A model generated the notes under the pieces. That model had not been told where the DNA came from. It saw only the letters and a program-made list of their open reading frames with translations, and did not search any database. Positions 1 to 57,403 of a stretch of 64,000 nucleotides of DNA are shown one piece after another. The translations under genes and the position numbers were made by a program. Source of the DNA: Thermoanaerobaculia bacterium (GTDB lineage: Bacteria; Acidobacteriota; Thermoanaerobaculia; UBA5066). Each line of letters starts with the position of its first letter. The stretch's first letter is position 1. Where the stretch lies: positions 401,595 to 465,594 of the forward strand of contig CAWGCY010000004.1 in NCBI GenBank assembly GCA_963821225.1, read 5' to 3'.

Positions 1-83
1 TGGGCATGTACACCTTCAGCAAGCGTCGCGACGAGGTCGCGGCGAAAGAGGGCGATGGAAGGCAGGAGGAACGCCATGTCTGA
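1..83 (+). CDS. 3' end of an upstream CDS (partial), possibly the partner subunit of the NrfD-like protein. Function not determinable from 27 residues.
   Basis: Open frame from window edge ending ...GMYTFSKRRDEVAAKEGDGRQEERHV with TGA at 81-83, overlapping the ATG of the next gene (ATGTCTGA). Translational coupling implies the same operon. Confidence 0.3.
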   Translation, partial: GMYTFSKRRDEVAAKEGDGRQEERHV

Positions 84-1305
84 AAACGCCCTGAAACCCG
101 CGCTCTTCGGCGGCCCGTGGATGCGGGAAAACCTCTTCCTCGGGATGACCTTCCGCGAGTACGTCAAGAGCCTCGTGACGCCGGTCAATGCGATCGCGAC
201 GGCGATCCTCCTCGTGGGACTTCCCACGATTGCGTACCGGTTCTGGAGAGGCCTCGGCGCCGCCACGAACCTGTCGCAGACGAACGCATGGGGCATCTGG
301 GTCGCCTTCGACGTCGTGTGCGGCGTCGCGCTCGCGGCGGGCGGCTACACGGTCGCCTGCGCGGTCTACATCTTCGGCCAGAAAGCGCTGCGGCCGATCC
401 TCCGCCCCGCGATTCTGACCGGGTTCCTCGGTTACGCGCTCGTCCTCCTCGGACTCGTCGTGGACCTCGGCCAGCCGTGGCGGCTGCCCTACCAGTTCTT
501 CCTGACGCCCGGCACGACGGCCGTCATGTACGAGGTCGGCTGGTGCGTCTTTCTGTATCTGATGGTGCTCGGGCTCGAGTTCGCGCCCGCGGCGCTCGAG
601 TGGCTCGGCCTCGTCAAGCTGCGCCGGCTCCTCGGGTCGCTGACGATCGGCATCATCGTCGTCGGGGTCACGCTCTCGACGCTCCACCAGTCCTCGCTCG
701 GCGCCTTCTTCCTCATGACGCCGGGCAAGCTGCACCCGCTCTGGTACTCGTCGTTCCTGCCGGTCTTCTTCTTCGTATCGAGTCTCGCGGCGGGTATCGG
801 CATGGTGGTCGTGGAGAGCGCGCTTTCCCACCGCGCGTTCCACGACCGGCTCGATCCGGCCGCTGCCGTGGACCTCGACCGCATCACGCTTTCCCTCGCG
901 AAGGGCGGCGCGATCGTCCTGTTCGCTTACTTCTTCATCCGACTGCAGGGCCTCGTGCAGGGCGGCCGTTTCGACCTCCTCGCGACCGGCTGGGGCGCCT
1001 GGTATCTCCTCGAGATGCTCGGCTTCGTCCTCCTGCCGTCGCTCATGTTCGCCTTCGCGGCGCGGCGAAAGAGCGCGAGGCTGGCCCGGATCGCCGGCGT
1101 CCTCACGGTCCTCGGCGTGATCCTCAACCGCTTCAACGTCTCGCTCATCGCCTTCAACTGGAACGTTCCGGACCGCTACGTTCCGAGCGTCGCCGAGATC
1201 GTCACGTCGCTCACGATCGTGACGATCGGCGTCCTGATCTTCCGCTGGATCGTGAATCGCATGCCGGTGGTGAACGAGCATCCCGACTGGCGCGGCGCCC
1301 ACTGA
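76..1305 (+). CDS. NrfD/PsrC-family polytopic membrane subunit (quinone-interacting subunit of CISM-type complexes)
   Basis: GGAGG RBS 8 nt upstream of ATG at 76 (the track ORF starts at 55). ~410 aa with about 8-10 predicted TM helices rich in G/A/L/V/W/Y, typical NrfD/PsrC/HybB topology. Coupled to upstream partial CDS. Confidence 0.6.
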   Translation: MSENALKPALFGGPWMRENLFLGMTFREYVKSLVTPVNAIATAILLVGLPTIAYRFWRGLGAATNLSQTNAWGIWVAFDVVCGVALAAGGYTVACAVYIFGQKALRPILRPAILTGFLGYALVLLGLVVDLGQPWRLPYQFFLTPGTTAVMYEVGWCVFLYLMVLGLEFAPAALEWLGLVKLRRLLGSLTIGIIVVGVTLSTLHQSSLGAFFLMTPGKLHPLWYSSFLPVFFFVSSLAAGIGMVVVESALSHRAFHDRLDPAAAVDLDRITLSLAKGGAIVLFAYFFIRLQGLVQGGRFDLLATGWGAWYLLEMLGFVLLPSLMFAFAARRKSARLARIAGVLTVLGVILNRFNVSLIAFNWNVPDRYVPSVAEIVTSLTIVTIGVLIFRWIVNRMPVVNEHPDWRGAH

Positions 1306-1323: not shown

Positions 1324-1992
1324 ATGAACGAAACCGAACTTCTCAGCCCTTACACCGCGAAGGCCGTCGAATACGTCCTCGCGATCTCGTACCTCCTCCT
1401 CTTCATCCCCTTCTGGCGCTTCGTCCAGGGGGAGGCGGTTCCGGCGCACGCCCTCGGCTTCGGCTGGTTCCAGGTCCCGAACGGCGTCCATCTCCATGCC
1501 GGCCACGCCTGGGCGCGCCCGGAAGGCGGTGCGGTGGAGGTCGGCCTCGACGACTTTGCCCACAAGCTCGTGGGCCCGCTCGAGGCGGTGCGCTTTCCCG
1601 AGATCGGCGCGCCGGTGCGCCAGGGCCAGAAAGCCTTCACGATCGTGGCCGGCGGCCAGCCGCTCGACGTGCTCTCCCCGGTGGACGGCCACGTCGTCGC
1701 GTTGAACGAGGCCATTCGCGCGCATCCGGCCGAGGCGCTGCGCGATCCGTACGGCGCCGGGTGGCTCATGAAGGTCGAGCCGCGCTGGCTGACCGGCAAC
1801 CTCAAGAACCTGTTCTCGGGAGACGCGGCCCGCCGATTCCTCGACGCCGCGGCGGGAAAGCTGGCCCAACGCCTCACGCCGCAACTCGGAGTCGTCCTGC
1901 AGGACGGCGGAACGCCGGTGCACGGCATCGCGCGAGCTCTCGACGAGGACCACTGGGACGAGCTGGCCCGGCGGTTCCTCGAGGGAAAGTGA
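1324..1992 (+). CDS. Membrane-anchored glycine-cleavage H-protein-like (GcvH-fold) protein lacking the lipoyl-lysine
   Basis: N-terminal TM helix, then HAWARPEGGAVEVGLDDFAHKLVG...PEIGAPV...LSPVDGHVVALNEAI...DPYGAGWLMKV, matching the GcvH signature (HxW..vGitdfAq.lG...PevG...sPvsGevvevN...PY..GWl.k). The position aligned to the lipoyl-Lys (ESVKA) is Gly. Confidence 0.55.
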   Translation: MNETELLSPYTAKAVEYVLAISYLLLFIPFWRFVQGEAVPAHALGFGWFQVPNGVHLHAGHAWARPEGGAVEVGLDDFAHKLVGPLEAVRFPEIGAPVRQGQKAFTIVAGGQPLDVLSPVDGHVVALNEAIRAHPAEALRDPYGAGWLMKVEPRWLTGNLKNLFSGDAARRFLDAAAGKLAQRLTPQLGVVLQDGGTPVHGIARALDEDHWDELARRFLEGK

Positions 1993-2002
1993 GGCGGCCG
2001 TC

Positions 2003-2353
2003 ATGAGACATCTCCGACTCATCGTTGTCCTCCTGACGCTCGGGCTGGCCGGGGCGGTTCTCGCGGCCGGTCTCGCCCGCCTTCCGAACGACCGCGCGCT
2101 CCCGCAGGGAACGGACAGCCCGGGCGTCGTGACGTTCCGACACTCGTCGCACGTCGACGTGGCGAAGCCCGACTGCACGACCTGCCATCCGGCGCTGTTC
2201 CCGATCCTCCGCCGTTCCGACGCCCTGGCGGCCCCCCGACTCAATCACAAGGACATGGAGAAAGGCGTCGCCTGCGGCAAGTGCCACGACGGCAAGAGCG
2301 CGCATGGATTCGATGATTGCGCCACCTGCCACGCCGTTCCGAAAGAGAGGTGA
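2003..2353 (+). CDS. Small membrane-anchored tri-heme c-type cytochrome (cytochrome c3/DsrJ-like)
   Basis: Signal/anchor helix then three CXXCH motifs (CTTCH, CGKCH, CATCH) in 116 aa. Sits between the two GcvH-like genes. Confidence 0.7.
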   Translation: MRHLRLIVVLLTLGLAGAVLAAGLARLPNDRALPQGTDSPGVVTFRHSSHVDVAKPDCTTCHPALFPILRRSDALAAPRLNHKDMEKGVACGKCHDGKSAHGFDDCATCHAVPKER

Positions 2354-2358
2354 GCACC

Positions 2359-3069
2359 ATGGAAGCTCTCCTGACGTTCCTCGAGGGTACCGTCATCTTC
2401 GTGGCGGGCCTCATCATCCGCCTTCTCCTTCTCATCGCGTTCGTGGCCGCCGCCCTCCTGCCCATCCTCGCCGGGTGGGGCGTCTACCGCCTGGCCGAGC
2501 GGACGATCCGGCGCCTCAGGGCGCGCCAGCTCGGCCTCGTGGACGTCGACGGCCTCGTTCTCGCGGAGCGCCGCCGTTACACGCCCGCCCACGCCTGGCT
2601 GGAAGAGAAAGGCGGCCGCCTGCGGGTGGGTCTCGACGGTCTCGCCGGACACCTCCTTCACGGCGTCACCGCCGTACAGCTTCCGCAGCCTGGAAGCATG
2701 CTGGCCGCCGGGCGCGTGGCCGTGACGGTCGCGTGTGGCGCGCGGACGGCGGTCATCCCCTCGCCCGTGACGGGCACGGTGGTGGCCGTGAACAGCGCCG
2801 TGCGCCGCCGCCCTTCTCTGGTCGAGTCCTCGCCTTACGGGAGAGGCTGGCTCTTCTCGGTGCGGCCTGCCTCCGACACGTATCGCAGCTTCCCGACGGG
2901 TGCGAAGGCGCGCGCCTGGTTCCACGCCGACGAGACGCGGCTCGCGCATTTCCTCGAAGGCGAGCTCGGCCTCGCGGCGGCGGACGGCGGCGAGCTGGTC
3001 CTGCCTCCTCCGGCCCTGCTTTCCGAGGATCAATGGCACCGGGCGGTGTCCAACTTCCTCGAGTCCTGA
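2359..3069 (+). CDS. Second membrane-anchored GcvH-fold protein lacking lipoyl-lysine
   Basis: RBS GAGAGG before ATG at 2359 (MEALLTFLEG). Two N-terminal TM helices, then AHAWLEEKGGRLRVGLDGLAGHLLHGV...SPVTGTVVAVNSAV...SPYGRGWLFSV, the GcvH pattern with no Lys at the lipoylation position. Confidence 0.55.
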   Translation: MEALLTFLEGTVIFVAGLIIRLLLLIAFVAAALLPILAGWGVYRLAERTIRRLRARQLGLVDVDGLVLAERRRYTPAHAWLEEKGGRLRVGLDGLAGHLLHGVTAVQLPQPGSMLAAGRVAVTVACGARTAVIPSPVTGTVVAVNSAVRRRPSLVESSPYGRGWLFSVRPASDTYRSFPTGAKARAWFHADETRLAHFLEGELGLAAADGGELVLPPPALLSEDQWHRAVSNFLES

Positions 3070-3096
3070 CTGCCCCTACGGCGCGGTTCCCCGCCA

Positions 3097-3140
3097 AGGC
3101 CGCCCCTCCGGGGGCGGCCTTCTTCTGTCAAGATCGGAGC
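3097..3140 (+). terminator. Rho-independent terminator after the NrfD/GcvH-like/cytochrome operon
   Basis: Perfect 11-bp stem AAGGCCGCCCC-TCC-GGGGCGGCCTT followed by CTTCTGTC, directly after the stop at 3069. Confidence 0.5.
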
Positions 3141-3159
3141 CGGAAAAAGGAGACCTCCC

Positions 3160-3999
3160 ATGCGCCGATCCGTCCTCGTCGTCGCGCTCGTCCTTCTCGC
3201 GGGTTGCGCGAAGAAGCCCGCCGCTCCCGCCGCCGCTTCGAGTCCGGCTGCGGTGATCCCTCAGGCCCCTCAGCCCGCTCTCGCCACGGTATCGGGAGTC
3301 GTCGAAGAGACGCTCGACGCCTCCGACTACACGTACATGCGCCTTGAAACCTCCGGCGGCGAGATCTGGGCCGCCGTCACGAAGACCTCCGTGAAGAAGG
3401 GCGACCAGGTCACGGTCGTAAACGCGATGTCGATGGACGGCTTCGAAAGCAGGACGCTGAACCGGAAGTTCGATCACATCGTGTTCGGCATGATCGGCGG
3501 CGGAACGGCCGGCGCTCTGCCCCAGGGCGCGCCCCCGGGACTGGTATCGGCGCACGGCTCCGCCTCGGAACCTCCTCAGCCCGCCCAGATGGCCGCGCAA
3601 CACGCCGCGGTTGCGGGCGGCCCGGCGGAGACCGGTGACGTCGCGGTCGCGAAGGCCGAAGGCAAGGACGCGCGCACCGTGGCGCAGGTCTTCGCGGAGC
3701 GCCTTTCGCTGAAGGACAAGATCGTGTCCGTGCGGGGCAAGGTCGTGAAGGCGAACTCCTCGATCATGGGCCGGACCTGGATTCACATTCGCGACGGCTC
3801 GGGTTCACGCGAAAAGAAGGACGACGACCTGACGGTGACGACCCAGGACAGCGCGGCCGTCGGCGACATCGTGGTCGTAAGGGGCGTCGTTCACGTCGAC
3901 CGCGATTTCGGCGCCGGCTACGCGTACCCGGCCGTCCTGGAGGACGCGAAGGTCACGCGCGAGCCGGCCTCGACGCGAGCGGACGCGACACGTCGGTGA
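3160..3999 (+). CDS. Lipoprotein with two tandem OB-fold (BOF/YgiW-like) domains
   Basis: AGGAGA RBS. Signal peptide with lipobox LLAGC. Two internal repeats ([30 protein letters not shown]...GDQVTVV and [28 protein letters not shown]...[10 protein letters not shown]) resembling the YgiW/BOF OB-fold. Confidence 0.45.
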
Positions 4000-5888
4000 T
4001 TCCGCTCGGGGCCGACCTCGCCGGCTATCAGGGACAGCCCGGCTCTTTCGGCGCCCGCGCGGCGGCGCGCTGCGGGAAGCCGGTAGCCTTCCCCACCTTC
4101 GAGCGCACGCTGCGTGCGCTCCTCGCCGGCGAGATCGGGTGCGCCGTGCTGCCCGCGGTCAACCGCGTGGACGGGCCGATCCTCGAGTCCCTGGATGCGC
4201 TCGCCCGCTCGCTCCTGGAGCCGGAATCCGCGATCGCCGTCGGGGCCGAGATCGAAGTGCCCGTGAGGCTCGTTCTTGCTGCGCCGGAGGGCCTCGCCCT
4301 GGAGGCCGTGCGCGAGGTCCATTCCCAGGCCGCGGTGCTCAGGCAGTGCCGCCATCTTCTCGCGCGCCTCGACGCGATCGGGATCGACACGCACGACACG
4401 GCGTACGCGGCCTTTCGCGTGAAGGAAGCCGGAGGGCCTCGAGCAGCCGTCTGCTCGGAGGAGGCGGCGCTCGAGGCCGGCCTGCTCATCCTCGAGGAGG
4501 ACGTCTCGGACGTCCGTCCGAACACGACGCGATTCTGGAAGCTCGTCCTCGCCGGCACGACGGCGGATGCCGTTCCGGCGGACGATGCCGCGCCTGACGC
4601 CCCCGCGCCGCGCGTGGTCTTCTACGCCGGCGTCCGGGCGTCTTCCGCGTTGGCGGAAGCCGGCGCCGAACTCCTCTCGCTGCCGGGCACGCCGGCCGAT
4701 CCGGTTCGCGGCTTCGCGGTCGTGCCCGAGAAGAACGTGACGCGGGCCTCGGCGGGCACGGGCAGGCCCGCAGCGGGCGAGCGCGTGATCTGGCTCGGGC
4801 CCGCCCCGGAGTTCGTGCGTCCTCCGCGGATGCGCGACATCCCGAGAGTGACGGAGGTGCGCGATCCGAGCGTCGTCGCCGTGGGGCCTTTCGTCGTCGG
4901 CGGAGGGCACCGCGCGGTGATCGCGGGTCCGTGCGCGGTCGAATCGCCCGAGCAGGTCGCGCGTCTGGCGCGCGCGGTCGCGCGCGCCGGCGCGACCGCG
5001 CTCCGCGGCGGCGTCTTCAAACCGCGCACGTCCCCCTATTCGTTCCAGGGACACGGCCTCGAAGCTCTCGGCTGGCTTAAGGATGCGGGAGACGCTGCGG
5101 GGCTTCCCATCGTGACGGAAGTGATGGCCCCCGCGCAGGTCGGCCCGGTGGCCGAGCGGGCCGACGTGCTGCAGATCGGCGCCCGGAACTGCCAGAACTA
5201 CGACCTCCTCAAGGAAGCGGGCAGAAGCCCCCGCCCCGTCTTCCTGAAACGCGGGTTCGGAACGACCGTCGAGGAGTGGCTCTCCTCGGCCGAGTACCTC
5301 CTCGACGCGGGCTGCAAGGACGTGATCCTCTGCGAGCGGGGCATCCGCACGTTCGAAAAGGCGACGCGGGGGACGCTCGATCTCGGCGGCCTCCTCGCGG
5401 CGCGCAGTCTCACGCATCTCCCGCTCTTCGCCGACCCCTCGCATGCCGCGGGCCGGCGCGACCTCGTGCCGGGCCTCGCACGCGCGGCGTGGGGCGCGGG
5501 CGTGGACGGACTCATGATCGAGGTCCACGATGCCCCCGAATCCGCGCTCTCCGACGGGCCACAGGCTCTCTTGCCCGAGGACCTCGAGGAGCTGCTTGAC
5601 GAATTCGGCATCCTGCCGGGCATGAGCGGCTCGGTGGAGAGGATCCGGCGCGCGATCGACGTCGTCGACGGCGGCATCGCACGGCTTGCCGCGCAGAGAC
5701 TGGAGCTCGCACGGCGCGTGGGCGCCGTCAAGAAAGCTTCCGGCCGCCCGATTCGCGACGAGGCGCGCGAGGCGAGCGTGCGTGCGCGTTTCGCCGAGGC
5801 GCTTGGAGGTGACACGCCGGCCGCGATGCGGCTCGTGGACACGCTCATCGACCTCGCTCTGGAAGCGGAGAAGCCCGGCGACGCGTGA
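3996..5888 (+). CDS. Tri-domain fusion: prephenate dehydratase (PDT) + DAHP synthase (3-deoxy-7-phosphoheptulonate synthase, class I-beta) + AroQ chorismate mutase
   Basis: N-terminal region has PDT motifs (ESLDAL...[13 protein letters not shown]...TRFWKL). The middle has the DAHPS/KDO8PS-like TIM barrel ([10 protein letters not shown]...[17 protein letters not shown]...[13 protein letters not shown]). The C-terminus has an AroQ chorismate mutase helix bundle ([31 protein letters not shown]...). Start overlaps the stop of the lipoprotein gene (GTGA). Confidence 0.75.
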
Positions 5889-21237: not shown

Positions 21238-21312
21238 GGGTCCGTAGCTCAGCGGTCAGAGCCACCGGCTCATAACCGGCGGGTCCCTGGTTCGAATCCA
21301 GGCGGACCCACC
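21238..21312 (+). tRNA. tRNA-Met (anticodon CAU), elongator type. tRNA-Ile2(LAU) cannot be excluded.
   Basis: Cloverleaf: acceptor GGGTCCG/CGGACCC, D-arm GCTC..GAGC, anticodon loop CTCATAA, T-arm CCTGG-TTCGAAT-CCAGG. G1-C72 pair argues against initiator tRNA. Coordinates +/-1. Confidence 0.8.
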
Positions 21313-52167: not shown

Positions 52168-52538
52168 CTTCTCAAAATGGTGGAGGCGGGGGGAGTCGAA
52201 CCCCCGTCCGAAGCGCCCGAACGTCGAGATTCTCCACGCTCAGTCCGGACTTGTTTTTCTAGCCGCCGCGTCTTCAGGTCCGGACGACCGGGCGCGGCAG
52301 CGAACCTGAAACTCTCGGGACGCCTCTTCAGATGGCGGAGGCGGCCCCAGCCCGGATTTCGCGTCAAACGCCGAGGCGCCCCGGACAGGCTCCCCGGCGC
52401 CCGTCACGGCTAATTAGGCCGCGAGAGCGAGGTCGCTGTTGTTGGCAGCTGGTTGTTGACCGTCGTTTTTACGAGCGAACGGCCGTGCTCGGCGTGCTCC
52501 TCGATCGCTGAATGCCCCGTCGAAACCGGGACGCCCCC
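52168..52538 (-). ncRNA. ssrA: tmRNA (ssrA)
   Basis: On the minus strand. 5' GGGGGCGTCCCGGTTTCGACGGGG... pairs with 3' ...GGACGGGGGTTCGACTCCCCCCGCCTCCACCA (T-arm GGGGGTTCGACTCCCCC, acceptor plus CCA). Internal tag reading frame ...GCC AAC AAC AGC GAC CTC GCT CTC GCG GCC TAA encodes ANNSDLALAA-stop. Length ~370 nt. Confidence 0.8.
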
Positions 52539-57328: not shown

Positions 57329-57403
57329 CGGGGCGTGGCGCAGGGGTAGCGCACCTGCTTTGGGAGCAGGGGGTCGGCGGTTCGATCCCGCCCGCCCCGA
57401 CCA
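57329..57403 (+). tRNA. tRNA-Pro (anticodon UGG)
   Basis: Acceptor CGGGGCG/CGCCCCG (C1-G72, typical of bacterial tRNA-Pro), D-arm GCGC..GCGC, anticodon loop TTTGGGA (UGG, G37), T-arm GGCGG-TTCGATC-CCGCC, discriminator A, encoded CCA. Confidence 0.8.

What the first reader, a model, noticed from the sequence alone, without database searches (positions are those of the whole stretch)
1324..3069. Two paralogous GcvH-fold proteins with N-terminal membrane anchors and no lipoylation site
Ordinary GcvH is soluble and carries the lipoyl-lysine in an E(S/T)VKA motif. Here both copies have TM helices (one in the first, two in the second), and the aligned position is non-lysine (AGGQ / ACGAR). Lysine-less GcvH paralogues do exist, but a membrane-anchored, duplicated, cytochrome-flanked version is unusual.
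Basis: seen in the sequence. Interest (0 to 1): 0.6.

Follow-up and report, generated by a model that had tools for sequence, protein, structure and literature searches.

The report
Membrane-tethered lysine-less GcvH-like respiratory subunits
Two proteins that look like the lipoic-acid-carrying H protein of glycine cleavage have lost the lipoyl lysine and gained membrane anchors, and they belong to a conserved, undescribed, sigma-54-controlled quinone/iron-sulfur/cytochrome membrane complex found in anaerobic Acidobacteriota, Anaeromyxobacter and other phyla.

Summary
G1 (1324-1992) and G2 (true start 2359, end 3069) are genuine GcvH folds: Pfam GCV_H E about 1e-17 to 1e-19, and AlphaFold models superpose on solved H proteins at 1.6 A. 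They are paralogues (36% identity). Each has an N-terminal hydrophobic anchor. Neither has the lipoyl lysine, and this is true of the whole families (lysine in 0/197 and 5/173 members).

They are not glycine-cleavage proteins. They sit in a six-gene operon conserved across phyla: small Cys4 protein, Tat-exported HmcB/HybA-like FeS protein, HmcC/NhcC/HybB-like NrfD protein, G1, triheme cytochrome c7, G2. The operon lies behind a sigma-54 promoter and beside a sensor kinase, an archaemetzincin-like protein and a sigma-54 response regulator.

Natural fusions (cytochrome c::G1, REC::Cys4::GcvH-like) and charge bias place the GcvH-like domains in the cytoplasm. The fusions also tie them to the Cys4 protein and to signalling.

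Best reading (inferred): they are non-lipoylated protein-binding modules that cap, regulate or couple the cytoplasmic face of an Nhc/Hmc-type quinone:cytochrome c module. G1's helix takes the HmcD/NhcD position.

No paper describing this was found, and databases call them "glycine cleavage system protein H". I rate it a new variant of a known kind. The function is untested.

The parts
1..83 (+). 3' end of the gene for a Tat-exported, C-tail-anchored 4x[4Fe-4S] protein (HmcB/HybA-like). The gene is cut by the window start.
   Evidence: The frame-3 translation GMYTFSKRRDEVAAKEGDGRQEERHV* matches the C-terminus of the FeS protein of the syntenic locus L001. That protein scores 343 bits on NCBIfam HmcB and 247 bits on HybA. 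All 56 full-length orthologues carry a twin-arginine motif.
55..1305 (+). NrfD-family, cofactor-less quinone-interacting membrane subunit (HmcC/NhcC/HybB-like). The start may be the ATG at 76.
   Evidence: Pfam NrfD E 6e-17. NCBIfam HmcC 505 bits (cut-off 550), HybB 269 bits, QrcD 103 bits.
1324..1992 (+). G1: N-terminal conserved TM helix, lysine-less GcvH-fold domain and C-terminal extension.
   Evidence: The family has 113 clusters at E<=1e-30.
1348..1425 (+). G1 membrane helix (residues 9-34). The near-invariant motif is K13, E16, Y17, A20, Y23, L24, L26, F27, P29, F30, W31, R32. It occupies the gene position of HmcD/NhcD.
   Evidence: Conservation >=0.92 at these positions in 64 sequences. 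The model shows helix 9-34. A precomputed weak hit of a family member's N-terminus to Pfam PF28260 'DVU_0533'.
1486..1782 (+). G1 GcvH-fold domain (residues 55-153). The hairpin AGGQ is at nt 1648-1659, where the lipoyl lysine would be.
1789..1989 (+). G1 C-terminal helical extension with the invariant QDGG loop (nt 1900-1911) and W211.
   Evidence: Invariant columns. The loop has low pLDDT in the monomer model. The motif is shared with G2 and with a separate 59-aa TM peptide in variant operons.
2003..2353 (+). Periplasmic triheme cytochrome c7 with a signal peptide.
   Evidence: Pfam Cytochrome_C7 E 5e-13 and NCBIfam nanowire_3heme 64 bits. CTTCH, CGKCH and CATCH motifs. Hydrophobic N-terminus.
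2359..3069 (+). G2: long N-terminal hydrophobic helix, lysine-less GcvH-fold domain and C-terminal extension.
2359..2487 (+). G2 hydrophobic anchor (residues 1-43, near-invariant R21), followed by a strongly basic flank (YRLAERTIRRLRARQ).
   Evidence: Hydropathy and flank charge (4.55 K+R in the 15 residues after the anchor, family mean). One continuous helix 2-58 in the model. Conservation.
2536..2868 (+). G2 GcvH-fold domain (residues 60-170). The hairpin ACGAR is at nt 2731-2745.
2878..3066 (+). G2 C-terminal extension with the near-invariant AAADGG motif (nt 2980-2991 covers ADGG) and W226.
3096..3121 (+). GC-rich 11-bp stem-loop followed by UUCUUCU; probable end of the operon.
   Evidence: RNA fold of 3070-3150: -40.9 kcal/mol, z -2.46. 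The consensus terminator scan did not report it.

Best explanation
G1 and G2 are not H proteins of the glycine cleavage system. They are two paralogous, membrane-tethered, cytoplasm-facing components of a conserved sigma-54-dependent respiratory module.

Gene order of the module: small Cys4 protein, Tat-exported tail-anchored 4x[4Fe-4S] protein (HmcB/HybA-like), NrfD-type quinone-binding membrane protein (HmcC/NhcC/HybB-like), G1, periplasmic triheme cytochrome c7, G2.

Inferred electron path, by analogy with Nhc/Hmc/Hyd-2: periplasmic c7 <-> FeS protein <-> menaquinone site in the NrfD subunit.

Inferred role of G1 and G2:
- G1's unusually conserved N-terminal helix sits in the membrane next to the NrfD subunit, in the role of the small hydrophobic subunit HmcD/NhcD.
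- The GcvH-fold domains of G1 and G2 lie on the cytoplasmic (N) side and cannot be lipoylated.
- With their shared 'DGG' C-terminal extensions, they act as protein-binding modules. Most likely they form a G1-G2 pair that binds the small Cys4 protein, and possibly the archaemetzincin-like protein.
- This gives a cytoplasmic cap that regulates the NrfD module or couples it to cytoplasmic partners, for example at its N-side proton half-channel.

Shown here: fold, loss of the lysine, paralogy, operon membership, and sigma-54 promoter and regulator linkage. Strongly inferred: the cytoplasmic orientation, which rests on charge bias and natural fusions only. Inferred only: physical association with NrfD, heterodimerisation, and the regulatory/adaptor role.
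For: (1) Fold without the lysine, family-wide.

(2) Synteny.
- Of 57 G1 loci from GTDB species genomes with both flanks present, 42 have NrfD+FeS immediately upstream and G2 downstream. Five have NrfD only, 2 have G2 only and 8 are solitary.
- The same order is seen in Thermoanaerobaculia, Holophagales, Vicinamibacterales, Anaeromyxobacter, Methylomirabilota/Rokubacteria and Nitrospinota. Syntrophobacterales carry a reduced form without the small gene and c7, with divergently transcribed regulators.

(3) Regulation.
- A TGGC-N7-TTGC -24/-12 element lies 24-55 nt upstream of the first (small Cys4) gene in 33/52 loci, against 0.03 expected per 210 nt.
- The sensor kinase, M54 protein and sigma-54 response regulator are present in 41/47 NrfD-linked loci.

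(4) Module identity.
- NrfD scores 505 bits on HmcC; the FeS protein scores 343 bits on HmcB and 247 on HybA.
- All 56 FeS orthologues have a twin-arginine signal.
- The cytochrome is a triheme c7 with a signal peptide.

(5) Topology.
- Net charge is -1.3 before and +1.8 after the G1 helix (measured on only 18 of 81 G1 sequences, because the anchor pattern used was too narrow). There are 4.55 K+R in the 15 residues after the G2 anchor.
- Two independent clusters (P0398, P0444) encode signal peptide, 4-haem cytochrome c, G1-type helix and GcvH-like domain. With only one span between them, this arrangement requires the N-terminal side to be outside and the GcvH-like domain inside.
- REC::GcvH-like fusions (P0400, P0510) are necessarily cytoplasmic.

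(6) Link to the Cys4 protein and to signalling.
- P0510 is REC::Cys4-domain::GcvH-like in one chain. It is encoded right after NrfD and M54 in a rearranged version of the same operon.
- A locus with only small-G1-G2 exists (L037).

(7) G1's helix is far more conserved than a passive anchor needs to be: 12 positions at >=0.92, and 9 of them lie within a 140-degree arc. It directly follows the HmcC-like gene, where hmcD/nhcD lie. One family member has a weak Pfam hit to DVU_0533.

(8) The NrfD-family review lists N-side half-channels in NhcC/HybB-type subunits and no GcvH-like partner (PMC8076601).
Against: - No experiment or complex model shows that G1 or G2 touch NrfD. Only single chains could be modelled.
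- The HmcD similarity rests on one weak precomputed hit and on gene position. The local Pfam copy lacks that model, so it could not be retested.
- 8 of 57 G1 loci are solitary, mostly second copies in Anaeromyxobacter. So G1 can exist away from an adjacent NrfD gene.
- In a few lineages the operon runs into genes for cytoplasmic oxidoreductases: HydS-like/NuoEF-like in L083 and L037, MTHFR/MetV-like in L095. This fits a coupling role better than a purely regulatory one.
- In the 40% GC variant the FeS protein has no Tat signal. The sidedness of that version is unclear.
- There are no redox-cofactor ligands in the G1/G2 helices, so electron transfer across the membrane through them is unlikely. 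What a cytoplasmic cap would achieve is therefore unproven.
Confidence: 0.5

Rival explanations
1. Docking platform for energy coupling. The cytoplasmic GcvH-like domains recruit soluble cytoplasmic oxidoreductases (NuoEF/HydS-like, MTHFR/MetV-like) to the NrfD module. They would thus replace the HmcE/HmcF half of Hmc and link cytoplasmic redox reactions to the quinone pool or periplasmic cytochromes.
For: - In L083 and L037 the G2 gene overlaps by 4 nt the start of a HydS-like [FeFe]-hydrogenase-like gene, followed by NuoE-, NuoF- and GltD/NuoG-like genes.
- L095 has MTHFR, Fer4_8, cytochrome c3 and a DUF5981/MetV-like gene after three GcvH-like genes.
- P0428 fuses three lysine-less GcvH-like domains to an FAD-linked oxidase and an HdrD/GlpC-like CCG module, the domain type of HmcF.
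Against: - These neighbours occur in only a few lineages. The window's own lineage has none: a lipoprotein and aromatic amino-acid genes follow.
- Anaeromyxobacter-type loci instead have CbcA/CbcB-like genes downstream.
- No haem or FeS ligands are conserved in the G1/G2 helices, and HmcC-type NrfD proteins carry no cofactors. So no electron path across the membrane is visible (PMC8076601).
Confidence: 0.2
2. Passive structural subunits. G1 and G2 are simply HmcD/NhcD-like stabilising helices, and their GcvH-like domains are evolutionary baggage or generic stabilisers with no regulatory or coupling role.
For: The gene position after the HmcC-like gene and the weak DVU_0533 hit. Very high conservation of the G1 helix. 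No cofactor-binding residues.
Against: - The GcvH-like domains and the DGG extension are themselves strongly conserved across phyla.
- Soluble REC-fused and Cys4-fused versions without any TM helix exist in rearranged copies of the same operon. So the domain has a function of its own.
Confidence: 0.15
3. Thiol/redox carriers. The frequent Cys next to the G2 hairpin tip and the four invariant Cys of the small protein carry a persulfide, a disulfide or a metal cluster. The cytoplasmic unit would then be a DsrC- or LbpA-like substrate or carrier for the complex.
For: Cys three residues before the lysine column in 97/173 G2 sequences. C8, C19, C39 and C47 are invariant in the small protein. GcvH-like LbpA proteins serve sulfur-oxidising Hdr-like systems (own knowledge).
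Against: The hairpin Cys is not conserved (56%) and is absent from G1. No HdrD/CCG or other thiol-active enzyme is encoded in the core operon. There is no electron route across the membrane.
Confidence: 0.1
4. Periplasmic orientation. The N-terminal helices are signal anchors, and the GcvH-like domains sit in the periplasm next to the FeS protein and c7.
For: The periplasmic partners (FeS, c7) are encoded next to them. Pro/Ala-rich linkers after the G1 helix in Anaeromyxobacter resemble periplasmic linkers.
Against: The positive-inside bias. The cytochrome c::TM::GcvH-like fusions and REC fusions.
Confidence: 0.03
5. Genuine GcvH or lipoyl-relay proteins, as the databases annotate them.
For: Pfam GCV_H domain hit. 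Source annotations read 'glycine cleavage system protein H'.
Against: - No lipoyl lysine.
- Scores of 58/57 bits against the 115.85-bit cut-off of the gcvH equivalog TIGR00527.
- Membrane anchors.
- No gcvT/gcvP nearby; the genes are embedded in a respiratory operon.
Confidence: 0.01

Closest known systems
Nhc (NhcABCD) and Hmc (HmcABCDEF) complexes of Desulfovibrio
   Same: - A Tat-exported tail-anchored 4x[4Fe-4S] protein, a cofactor-less NrfD-type subunit (best NCBIfam matches HmcB and HmcC) and a periplasmic multihaem cytochrome c.
- A single-helix hydrophobic element encoded directly after the NrfD gene, as HmcD/NhcD are (descriptions in 10.1101/2023.11.02.564894, and PMC8076601).
   Different: - The cytochrome is a 3-haem c7, not 9 or 16 haems.
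- There is no HmcE (cytochrome b) and no HmcF (HdrD-like).
- The HmcD-position protein carries a 190-residue cytoplasmic lysine-less GcvH-like domain, and a second paralogue (G2) is present.
- There is a dedicated Cys4 protein, an M54 protein and sigma-54 two-component control.
- Scores fall below the HmcB/HmcC equivalog cut-offs.
E. coli hydrogenase-2 membrane module HybA/HybB, and the 'tail-anchored ferredoxin + HybB-like quinol oxidase + cytochrome c' modules described by the Palmer laboratory
   Same: The same FeS/NrfD pair (HybA 247 bits, HybB 269 bits). The same three-to-four-gene logic with c-type cytochromes (10.1101/2023.11.02.564894).
   Different: No hydrogenase subunits here. That paper mentions no GcvH-like, Cys4 or M54 components.
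Geobacter Cbc-type quinol:cytochrome c oxidoreductases (Cbc4 = CbcSTU; CbcBA with the sigma-54 regulator BccR)
   Same: - Cbc4 is a cytochrome c, an FeS protein and an integral membrane subunit (10.1101/2025.04.14.648717).
- CbcBA is sigma-54/BccR controlled and is induced at low redox potential (10.1101/2021.04.15.440034).
- In Anaeromyxobacter-type loci, CbcA/CbcB-like genes lie directly downstream of G2.
   Different: CbcS is a NapC/CymA-type tetrahaem protein. No GcvH-like subunits are reported in any Cbc complex. The window's lineage has no CbcAB genes nearby.
Canonical GcvH, and lipoate-binding GcvH-like proteins (LbpA, GcvH-L)
   Same: The same fold at 1.6 A rmsd. The HxW, G(I/V/L)xD and PYGxGW core motifs are conserved.
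   Different: The lipoyl lysine is absent. The proteins are membrane-anchored and have a 40-residue C-terminal extension with a DGG motif. They score below the gcvH, 'not_gcvH' and 'GcvH_rel_desulf' equivalog cut-offs.
N-terminal barrel-sandwich (lipoyl-like) domains of NqrA and RnfC
   Different: This is only a distant fold resemblance. NqrA and RnfC are not GcvH-type and belong to unrelated complexes. This is an analogy, not homology.

Membership tests
GcvH (glycine cleavage system H protein, TIGR00527 / PF01597) | GcvH fold (hybrid barrel-sandwich with a hairpin) | tested here: met
GcvH (glycine cleavage system H protein, TIGR00527 / PF01597) | Lipoyl-lysine at the hairpin tip (E-S/T-V-K-A) | tested here: not met
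   Gly in G1 and Ala in G2 at that column. Lysine in 0/197 and 5/173 family members.
GcvH (glycine cleavage system H protein, TIGR00527 / PF01597) | Score above the curated equivalog cut-off | tested here: not met
   TIGR00527: 58.2 and 56.8 bits against 115.85. PRK01202: 71.9 and 72.3 bits against 117.
GcvH (glycine cleavage system H protein, TIGR00527 / PF01597) | Soluble protein encoded with, or functionally tied to, gcvT/gcvP or lipoate-relay enzymes | tested here: not met
   N-terminal membrane helices. The neighbours are NrfD, FeS and cytochrome c7 genes in most loci with both flanks present (42 of 57).
Hmc/Nhc-type transmembrane complexes | HmcB/NhcB-like Tat-exported tail-anchored 4x[4Fe-4S] subunit | tested here: inconclusive
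   The best NCBIfam match is HmcB at 343 bits, below the cut-off of 420. A Tat motif is present in 56/56 orthologues and a C-terminal helix is present. Only the last 26 codons lie in the window.
Hmc/Nhc-type transmembrane complexes | HmcC/NhcC-like NrfD subunit | tested here: inconclusive
   HmcC 505 bits, below the cut-off of 550, but far above HybB (269), QrcD (103) and DsrP (30).
Hmc/Nhc-type transmembrane complexes | High-molecular-weight (9- or 16-haem) cytochrome c subunit | tested here: not met
   Only a 116-aa triheme c7 is encoded.
Hmc/Nhc-type transmembrane complexes | Small hydrophobic subunit HmcD/NhcD after the NrfD gene | tested here: inconclusive
   The G1 helix is in that gene position. 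A precomputed weak Pfam PF28260 'DVU_0533' hit is listed for only one member (P0070) of the 120 G1 relatives shown. The model is not in the local Pfam copy, and there was no NCBIfam hit.
Hmc/Nhc-type transmembrane complexes | HmcE (cytochrome b) and HmcF (HdrD-like CCG protein), for Hmc proper | tested here: not met
   Absent from the window and from all syntenic loci examined.
Hydrogenase-2 type HybOABC | [NiFe] hydrogenase large and small subunits encoded with HybA/HybB | tested here: not met
   No hydrogenase subunits in the operon. HybA 247 bits against 263 and HybB 269 bits against 450.
Geobacter Cbc4 (CbcSTU) | NapC/CymA-type membrane-anchored tetrahaem CbcS | tested here: not met
   The cytochrome here is a soluble c7-type triheme. 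Cbc4 composition from 10.1101/2025.04.14.648717.
Qrc (QrcABCD) | QrcD-type NrfD subunit and molybdopterin-like QrcB | tested here: not met
   QrcD 102.6 bits against 570. No QrcB-like gene.

The most novel reading that the evidence does not exclude
The lysine-less GcvH-like domain, the Cys4 mini-protein, the 'DGG' peptide motif, the archaemetzincin-like protein and the haem-sensing kinase/sigma-54 regulator together form a previously unrecognised control-and-coupling device on the cytoplasmic face of NrfD-type quinone modules. It would be a phosphorylation- or redox-controlled 'clutch' that gates proton or electron flow through the complex, or that plugs different cytoplasmic oxidoreductases (NuoEF/HydS-like, MTHFR-like) into it. 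In that reading the DGG segment replaces the lipoyl-lysine arm as the element that docks into a partner, or it is processed by the M54 protein. This would define a fifteenth kind of NrfD complex, with a new way of using the lipoyl-domain fold.
Probability: 0.2. Interest if true: 0.8.

Novelty: new variant of a known kind. Interest (0 to 1): 0.62.

Why it matters
NrfD-type modules are the quinone interface of many anaerobic respiratory chains, including sulfur, nitrite, arsenate, hydrogen and metal respiration. Whether and how they conserve energy is still debated.

This finding has three consequences:
- It adds a conserved pair of cytoplasmic subunits, built from a de-lipoylated H-protein fold, to one branch of that family. 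The branch is common in iron- and metal-reducing Acidobacteriota and Anaeromyxobacter: 134 confirmed stretches in a pattern-limited scan of one genome per species, in which some genomes carry two copies.
- It flags a systematic mis-annotation as 'glycine cleavage system protein H'. That label would inflate predictions of glycine or C1 metabolism in metagenomes.
- It provides Rosetta-stone fusions that make the function testable in a genetically tractable host, Anaeromyxobacter dehalogenans.

Tried and rejected
- Literature. Full-text searches found no paper that pairs a GcvH-like protein with an NrfD-type complex. The term sets were: GcvH+NrfD; NrfD+'glycine cleavage'+'cytochrome c7'; 'glycine cleavage system H'+Anaeromyxobacter+cytochrome; 'GcvH-like'+transmembrane; and archaemetzincin+sigma-54+cytochrome. 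The first four returned no papers and the last only papers unrelated to this system.
- Geobacter Cbc4 was considered as the identity of the module. It was rejected because CbcS is a NapC-type tetrahaem and no GcvH-like subunit is described.
- The exact window protein is not on record in the contig index, so context came from 86-96% identical relatives.
- The HmcD link could not be retested.
- P0166, which looked like a longer G2-containing fusion (345 aa), is a frameshifted assembly artefact. It gives no evidence on the topology of G2.
- My first sigma-54 pattern was too strict and found nothing. The relaxed TGGC-N7-TTGC pattern was then compared with background.
- The consensus terminator scan missed the hairpin after G2. 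It was assessed by folding instead.
- The context of solitary G1 copies in Anaeromyxobacter was inspected and gave no consistent neighbours.
- The small Cys4 protein search returned only 'hypothetical protein' and no link to named Geobacter genes.


Full report
**1. The observation**

The window is about 69% G+C. ORF listing gives, on the + strand:
- a 416-aa polytopic protein at 55-1305;
- a 222-aa protein at 1324-1992 (G1);
- a 116-aa protein at 2003-2353;
- an ORF at 2317-3069, whose homologues all begin at the ATG at 2359 (236 aa; G2);
- a lipoprotein at 3160-3999.

Pfam assigns NrfD to the first protein, GCV_H to G1 (E 1e-17) and to G2 (E 7e-19), and Cytochrome_C7 to the 116-aa protein. 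Both G1 and G2 hit 13 solved GcvH sequences.

In the residue-by-residue HMMER alignments the lipoyl-lysine column is Gly in G1 (AGGQ) and Ala in G2 (ACGAR). G1 and G2 are 36% identical over 160 residues (E 3e-28), including a shared C-terminal extension.

**2. Is the loss of the lysine a family property?**

I aligned 197 distinct G1-type and 173 G2-type sequences with E. coli GcvH. Lysine occupies the canonical column in 0 and 5 of them respectively. That column is G/E/D/S/A in G1 and G/A/D/R in G2.

One position later a basic residue is common: K 79, R 57, Q 33 in G1, and R 148 of 173 in G2. Because Arg and Gln freely replace Lys there, lipoylation cannot be the conserved function. From my own knowledge of lipoyl domains, the lysine position at the turn is also strict for the lipoylating enzymes. 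A Cys three residues before the column is frequent in G2 (97/173) but not conserved, and it is absent from G1.

Both proteins score about half the curated cut-offs of the gcvH equivalog models. They are also far below 'not_gcvH' and 'GcvH_rel_desulf'.

**3. Anchors and sidedness**

G1 has a single helix (model residues 9-34). Its sequence is exceptionally conserved: K13, E16, Y17, A20, Y23, L24, L26, F27, P29, F30, W31 and R32 are all >=0.92 in 64 sequences spanning 49-86% identity. Nine of these twelve lie within a 140-degree arc of the helix.

G2 has a 43-46-residue hydrophobic stretch with a near-invariant Arg21. AlphaFold draws it as one continuous helix 2-58.

Three lines of evidence place the GcvH-like domains in the cytoplasm:
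- Charge bias. The flanks are net negative before and positive after the G1 helix (18 sequences only, because the anchor pattern was too narrow). There are 4.55 K+R in the 15 residues after the G2 anchor, family mean.
- Cytochrome fusions. An exhaustive HMMER search of 1.84 billion representatives produced two independent clusters (P0398, P0444). In them a signal peptide and a four-haem cytochrome c are fused to a G1-type helix (ATKxxEYLL...IPF), a GcvH-like domain and the C-terminal extension. A c-type cytochrome must be periplasmic and only one span separates the two parts, so the GcvH-like domain is cytoplasmic.
- Receiver fusions. P0400 and P0510 fuse a receiver (REC) domain to the GcvH-like domain, which again means cytoplasmic.

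**4. Context: a conserved operon that begins upstream of the window**

The closest relatives (95-96% identical G1) are Thermoanaerobaculia/Acidobacteriota MAGs. In an 86%-identical locus (L001) and in Anaeromyxobacter sp. K (L002) the gene order is:
- HAMP sensor kinase, Peptidase_M54 (archaemetzincin-like), sigma-54 response regulator;
- then a 72-79-aa protein, a 4Fe-4S protein, NrfD, G1, c7, G2.

The first 83 bases of the window are the 3' end of the FeS gene.

A pattern-limited scan of one genome per GTDB species found 134 tblastn-confirmed stretches; some genomes carry two copies. The taxa are Thermoanaerobaculia, Holophagales, Vicinamibacterales, Anaeromyxobacteraceae, Methylomirabilota/Rokubacteria, Nitrospinota and Syntrophobacterales. 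Syntrophobacterales carry a reduced form without the small gene and c7, with the regulators transcribed divergently.

Among 57 loci with both flanks present:
- 42 have FeS+NrfD directly upstream of G1 and G2 downstream;
- 5 have NrfD only, 2 have G2 only and 8 are solitary copies;
- the kinase/M54/regulator set is in 41 of the 47 NrfD-linked loci.

A -24/-12 element (TGGC-N7-TTGC) lies 24-55 nt upstream of the small gene in 33 of 52 loci, against 0.03 expected. A strong stem-loop follows G2 at 3096-3121. The operon therefore runs from the small gene to G2.

**5. Identity of the other parts**

- The NrfD protein scores 505 bits on the HmcC model (cut-off 550), 269 on HybB and 103 on QrcD.
- The FeS protein scores 343 bits on HmcB (cut-off 420) and 247 on HybA. 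It has a C-terminal helix and a twin-arginine motif in 56 of 56 orthologues, so it is periplasmic and tail-anchored.
- The cytochrome has a signal peptide and three CxxCH motifs.
- The small protein has no Pfam or NCBIfam match. It has four invariant cysteines, in the pattern CPxLxExxMxxC...PxKKxxP...C...C. It belongs to a family of about 1,260 database entries, all called 'hypothetical', and it heads the same operon wherever I looked.
- The M54 protein just reaches the archaemetzincin family cut-off (145.4 against 145).
- The kinase's periplasmic part carries conserved CxxCH and Cx4CH motifs. It weakly resembles the haem-containing Mcp40H-20 sensor domain.

**6. Variants that inform function**

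(a) A 40% G+C lineage (L090-L092) has: kinase, sigma-54 regulator, a canonical TGGCAC-N5-TTGC element, then a 59-aa protein made of one TM helix plus the sequence GVTITDGG, an FeS protein without a Tat signal, NrfD, M54 and P0510. P0510 is REC::Cys4-domain::GcvH-like::DGG-extension in a single chain. This is a Rosetta-stone fusion. It ties the small Cys4 protein to the GcvH-like domain, ties both to two-component signalling, and shows that the DGG segment can be supplied separately on a membrane helix.

(b) L094 has two GcvH-like genes before FeS-NrfD, and the cytochrome::G1 fusion after it. M54, regulator and kinase are divergent.

(c) L095 has NrfD, then a GcvH-like gene, REC::GcvH-like, a third GcvH-like gene, and then MTHFR, a Fer4_8 protein, cytochrome c3 and a DUF5981/MetV-like protein.

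(d) A c7-less Thermoanaerobaculia subgroup (L083, L037) runs from G2, with a 4-nt overlap, into a HydS-like [FeFe]-hydrogenase-like gene and NuoE/NuoF/GltD-NuoG-like genes. L037 has small-G1-G2 plus that cluster, but no FeS or NrfD.

(e) In about 17 Anaeromyxobacteraceae-type loci, CbcA/CbcB-like genes, an M48/M56 protein and a further kinase/regulator pair follow G2. This matches the remark in the CbcBA paper that CbcBA homologues sit near BccR-like sigma-54 regulators in Anaeromyxobacter (10.1101/2021.04.15.440034).

(f) P0363 is a TM-G1 followed by a second GcvH-like domain in tandem. P0428 fuses three lysine-less GcvH-like domains to an FAD-linked oxidase and an HdrD/GlpC-like CCG module.

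(g) The precomputed Pfam record of one G1 member (P0070) lists a weak N-terminal hit to PF28260 'DVU_0533'. From my own knowledge, DVU0533 is hmcD. HmcD is described as a small hydrophobic peptide in 10.1101/2023.11.02.564894.

**7. Most likely mechanism**

- The periplasmic half is an Nhc/Hmc/Hyd-2-type wire: c7 <-> 4x[4Fe-4S] protein <-> quinone site of a cofactor-less NrfD subunit. This is inferred from family membership and the descriptions in PMC8076601.
- G1's helix is too conserved, and too one-sided in its conservation, to be a mere anchor. It follows the HmcC-like gene as hmcD does. I infer that it packs against NrfD as an HmcD/NhcD equivalent.
- The two GcvH-fold domains are cytoplasmic, lack the swinging arm, and retain a basic residue at the hairpin and an invariant DGG loop that is disordered in the monomer models.
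- Together with the Cys4 protein, to which the domain is fused in P0510, and probably with M54, they most likely form a cytoplasmic cap.
- REC fusions, and the constant company of a kinase/sigma-54 regulator pair, suggest that the cap regulates the module. The occasional downstream NuoEF/HydS or MTHFR genes suggest that it can also serve as an adaptor to cytoplasmic enzymes.
- NhcC/HybB-type subunits are proposed to have an N-side proton half-channel (PMC8076601). That is an obvious target for a cytoplasmic cap.

Shown: fold, lysine loss, paralogy, operon membership, and promoter and regulator linkage. Strongly inferred: the cytoplasmic orientation. Inferred only: contact with NrfD, the G1-G2 pairing, and the regulatory or adaptor role. 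I put about 0.5 on this composite reading. The rivals (coupling platform, passive subunit, thiol carrier, periplasmic orientation, true GcvH) are listed with their evidence.

**8. Comparison with what is known, and novelty**

[quoted passage not shown] The review of NrfD complexes lists fourteen kinds, and none has a GcvH-like subunit.

Five full-text searches found no paper pairing a GcvH-like protein with an NrfD-type complex or a membrane anchor. Databases name both proteins 'glycine cleavage system protein H', which is a mis-annotation.

Lysine-less GcvH relatives are known in general, and cofactor-less lipoyl-like domains sit on the cytoplasmic face of Nqr and Rnf (weak structural matches). 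So the principle has analogies, but this family, its architecture and its operon appear undescribed.

I classify it as a new variant of a known kind, with interest 0.62. The case is solid and widespread, and it bears on the open question of how NrfD modules are coupled and controlled. It has no functional data.

Noticed in passing
L001 7485-7505 and equivalent positions in 33 of 52 related loci (upstream of the window start): A sigma-54-type -24/-12 element (TGGC-N7-TTGC) lies 24-55 nt before the small Cys4 gene that heads the operon. Expected by chance: 0.03 per 210 nt.
   Followed up: yes
L001 7528-7767; L002 7567-7785 (not in the window): A 72-85-aa cytoplasmic protein with four invariant Cys, in the pattern CPxLxExxMxxC...PxKKxxP...C...C. 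It has no Pfam or NCBIfam family and about 1,260 database relatives, all called 'hypothetical'. It always comes first in the operon, and it is fused to REC and a GcvH-like domain in P0510.
   Followed up: partly
L001 5450-6034; L090 5416-6003: An archaemetzincin-like (Peptidase_M54) gene with an intact HExxHxxGxxH motif is part of the system in 41/47 loci. It lies either between the kinase and the sigma-54 regulator or directly between NrfD and the GcvH-like gene. No function is known for bacterial members.
   Followed up: partly
L001 3813-5453; L090 105-1700: The HAMP sensor kinase of the system has conserved CxxCH and Cx4CH motifs in its periplasmic part, and a weak match to the haem-binding Mcp40H-20 sensor domain. 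This suggests a haem-c-based periplasmic redox sensor.
   Followed up: no
window 1900-1911 and 2980-2991; L090 3327-3506: An invariant 'DGG' loop lies in the C-terminal extension of both G1 and G2 and has low pLDDT in the monomer models. In a 40% GC variant operon, a separate 59-aa protein consists of one TM helix plus GVTITDGG. The motif looks like a docking or processing element.
   Followed up: partly
L083 11423-13692; L037 9429-15851: In a c7-less Thermoanaerobaculia subgroup, G2 overlaps by 4 nt a HydS-like [FeFe]-hydrogenase-like gene. NuoE-, NuoF- and GltD/NuoG-like genes follow. L037 has small-G1-G2 with that cluster but no FeS or NrfD.
   Followed up: partly
L002 12412-15743 and about 17 other Anaeromyxobacteraceae-type loci: A CbcA-like multihaem cytochrome, a CbcB-like b-type cytochrome, an M48/M56 (BlaR1-like) protein and a 190-aa protein follow G2. 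Further on lie a HisKA_3 kinase and a GerE-type regulator.
   Followed up: partly
L095 1516-7437: A variant with three GcvH-like genes (one fused to REC) after NrfD. These are followed by MTHFR, a Fer4_8 protein, cytochrome c3 and a DUF5981/MetV-like protein. This could be a membrane link for methylene-THF reductase.
   Followed up: no
P0428 (1391 aa, metagenomic): Three tandem lysine-less GcvH-like domains fused to an FAD-linked oxidase (GlcD-like), a 4Fe-4S dicluster and two CCG domains (HdrD/GlpC-like).
   Followed up: no
L090 3503-4240: In the 40% GC variant the FeS subunit has no Tat signal but keeps the C-terminal helix. Its sidedness is unclear, and no Tat-signal partner is visible in the operon.
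   Followed up: no
L043, L047, L059, L060, L062, L063, L065, L074, L078: Solitary second copies of G1 in Anaeromyxobacter genomes. They are typically preceded by a non-coding gap of several hundred nucleotides (about 40-890 nt) and have no conserved neighbours.
   Followed up: partly
window 3160-3999: A lipoprotein with no family match is conserved directly after G2, but only in the Thermoanaerobaculia relatives. It lies beyond the terminator-like hairpin, so it is probably not part of the operon.
   Followed up: partly
window 3996-5888: A 630-aa ORF whose orthologue in L001 combines prephenate dehydratase, DAHP synthase and chorismate mutase domains in one chain.
   Followed up: no
window 52178-52538 (-), 21238-21312 (+), 57329-57403 (+): A tmRNA (tag ANNSDLALAA), tRNA-Met(CAT) and tRNA-Pro(TGG). 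These are ordinary.
   Followed up: yes
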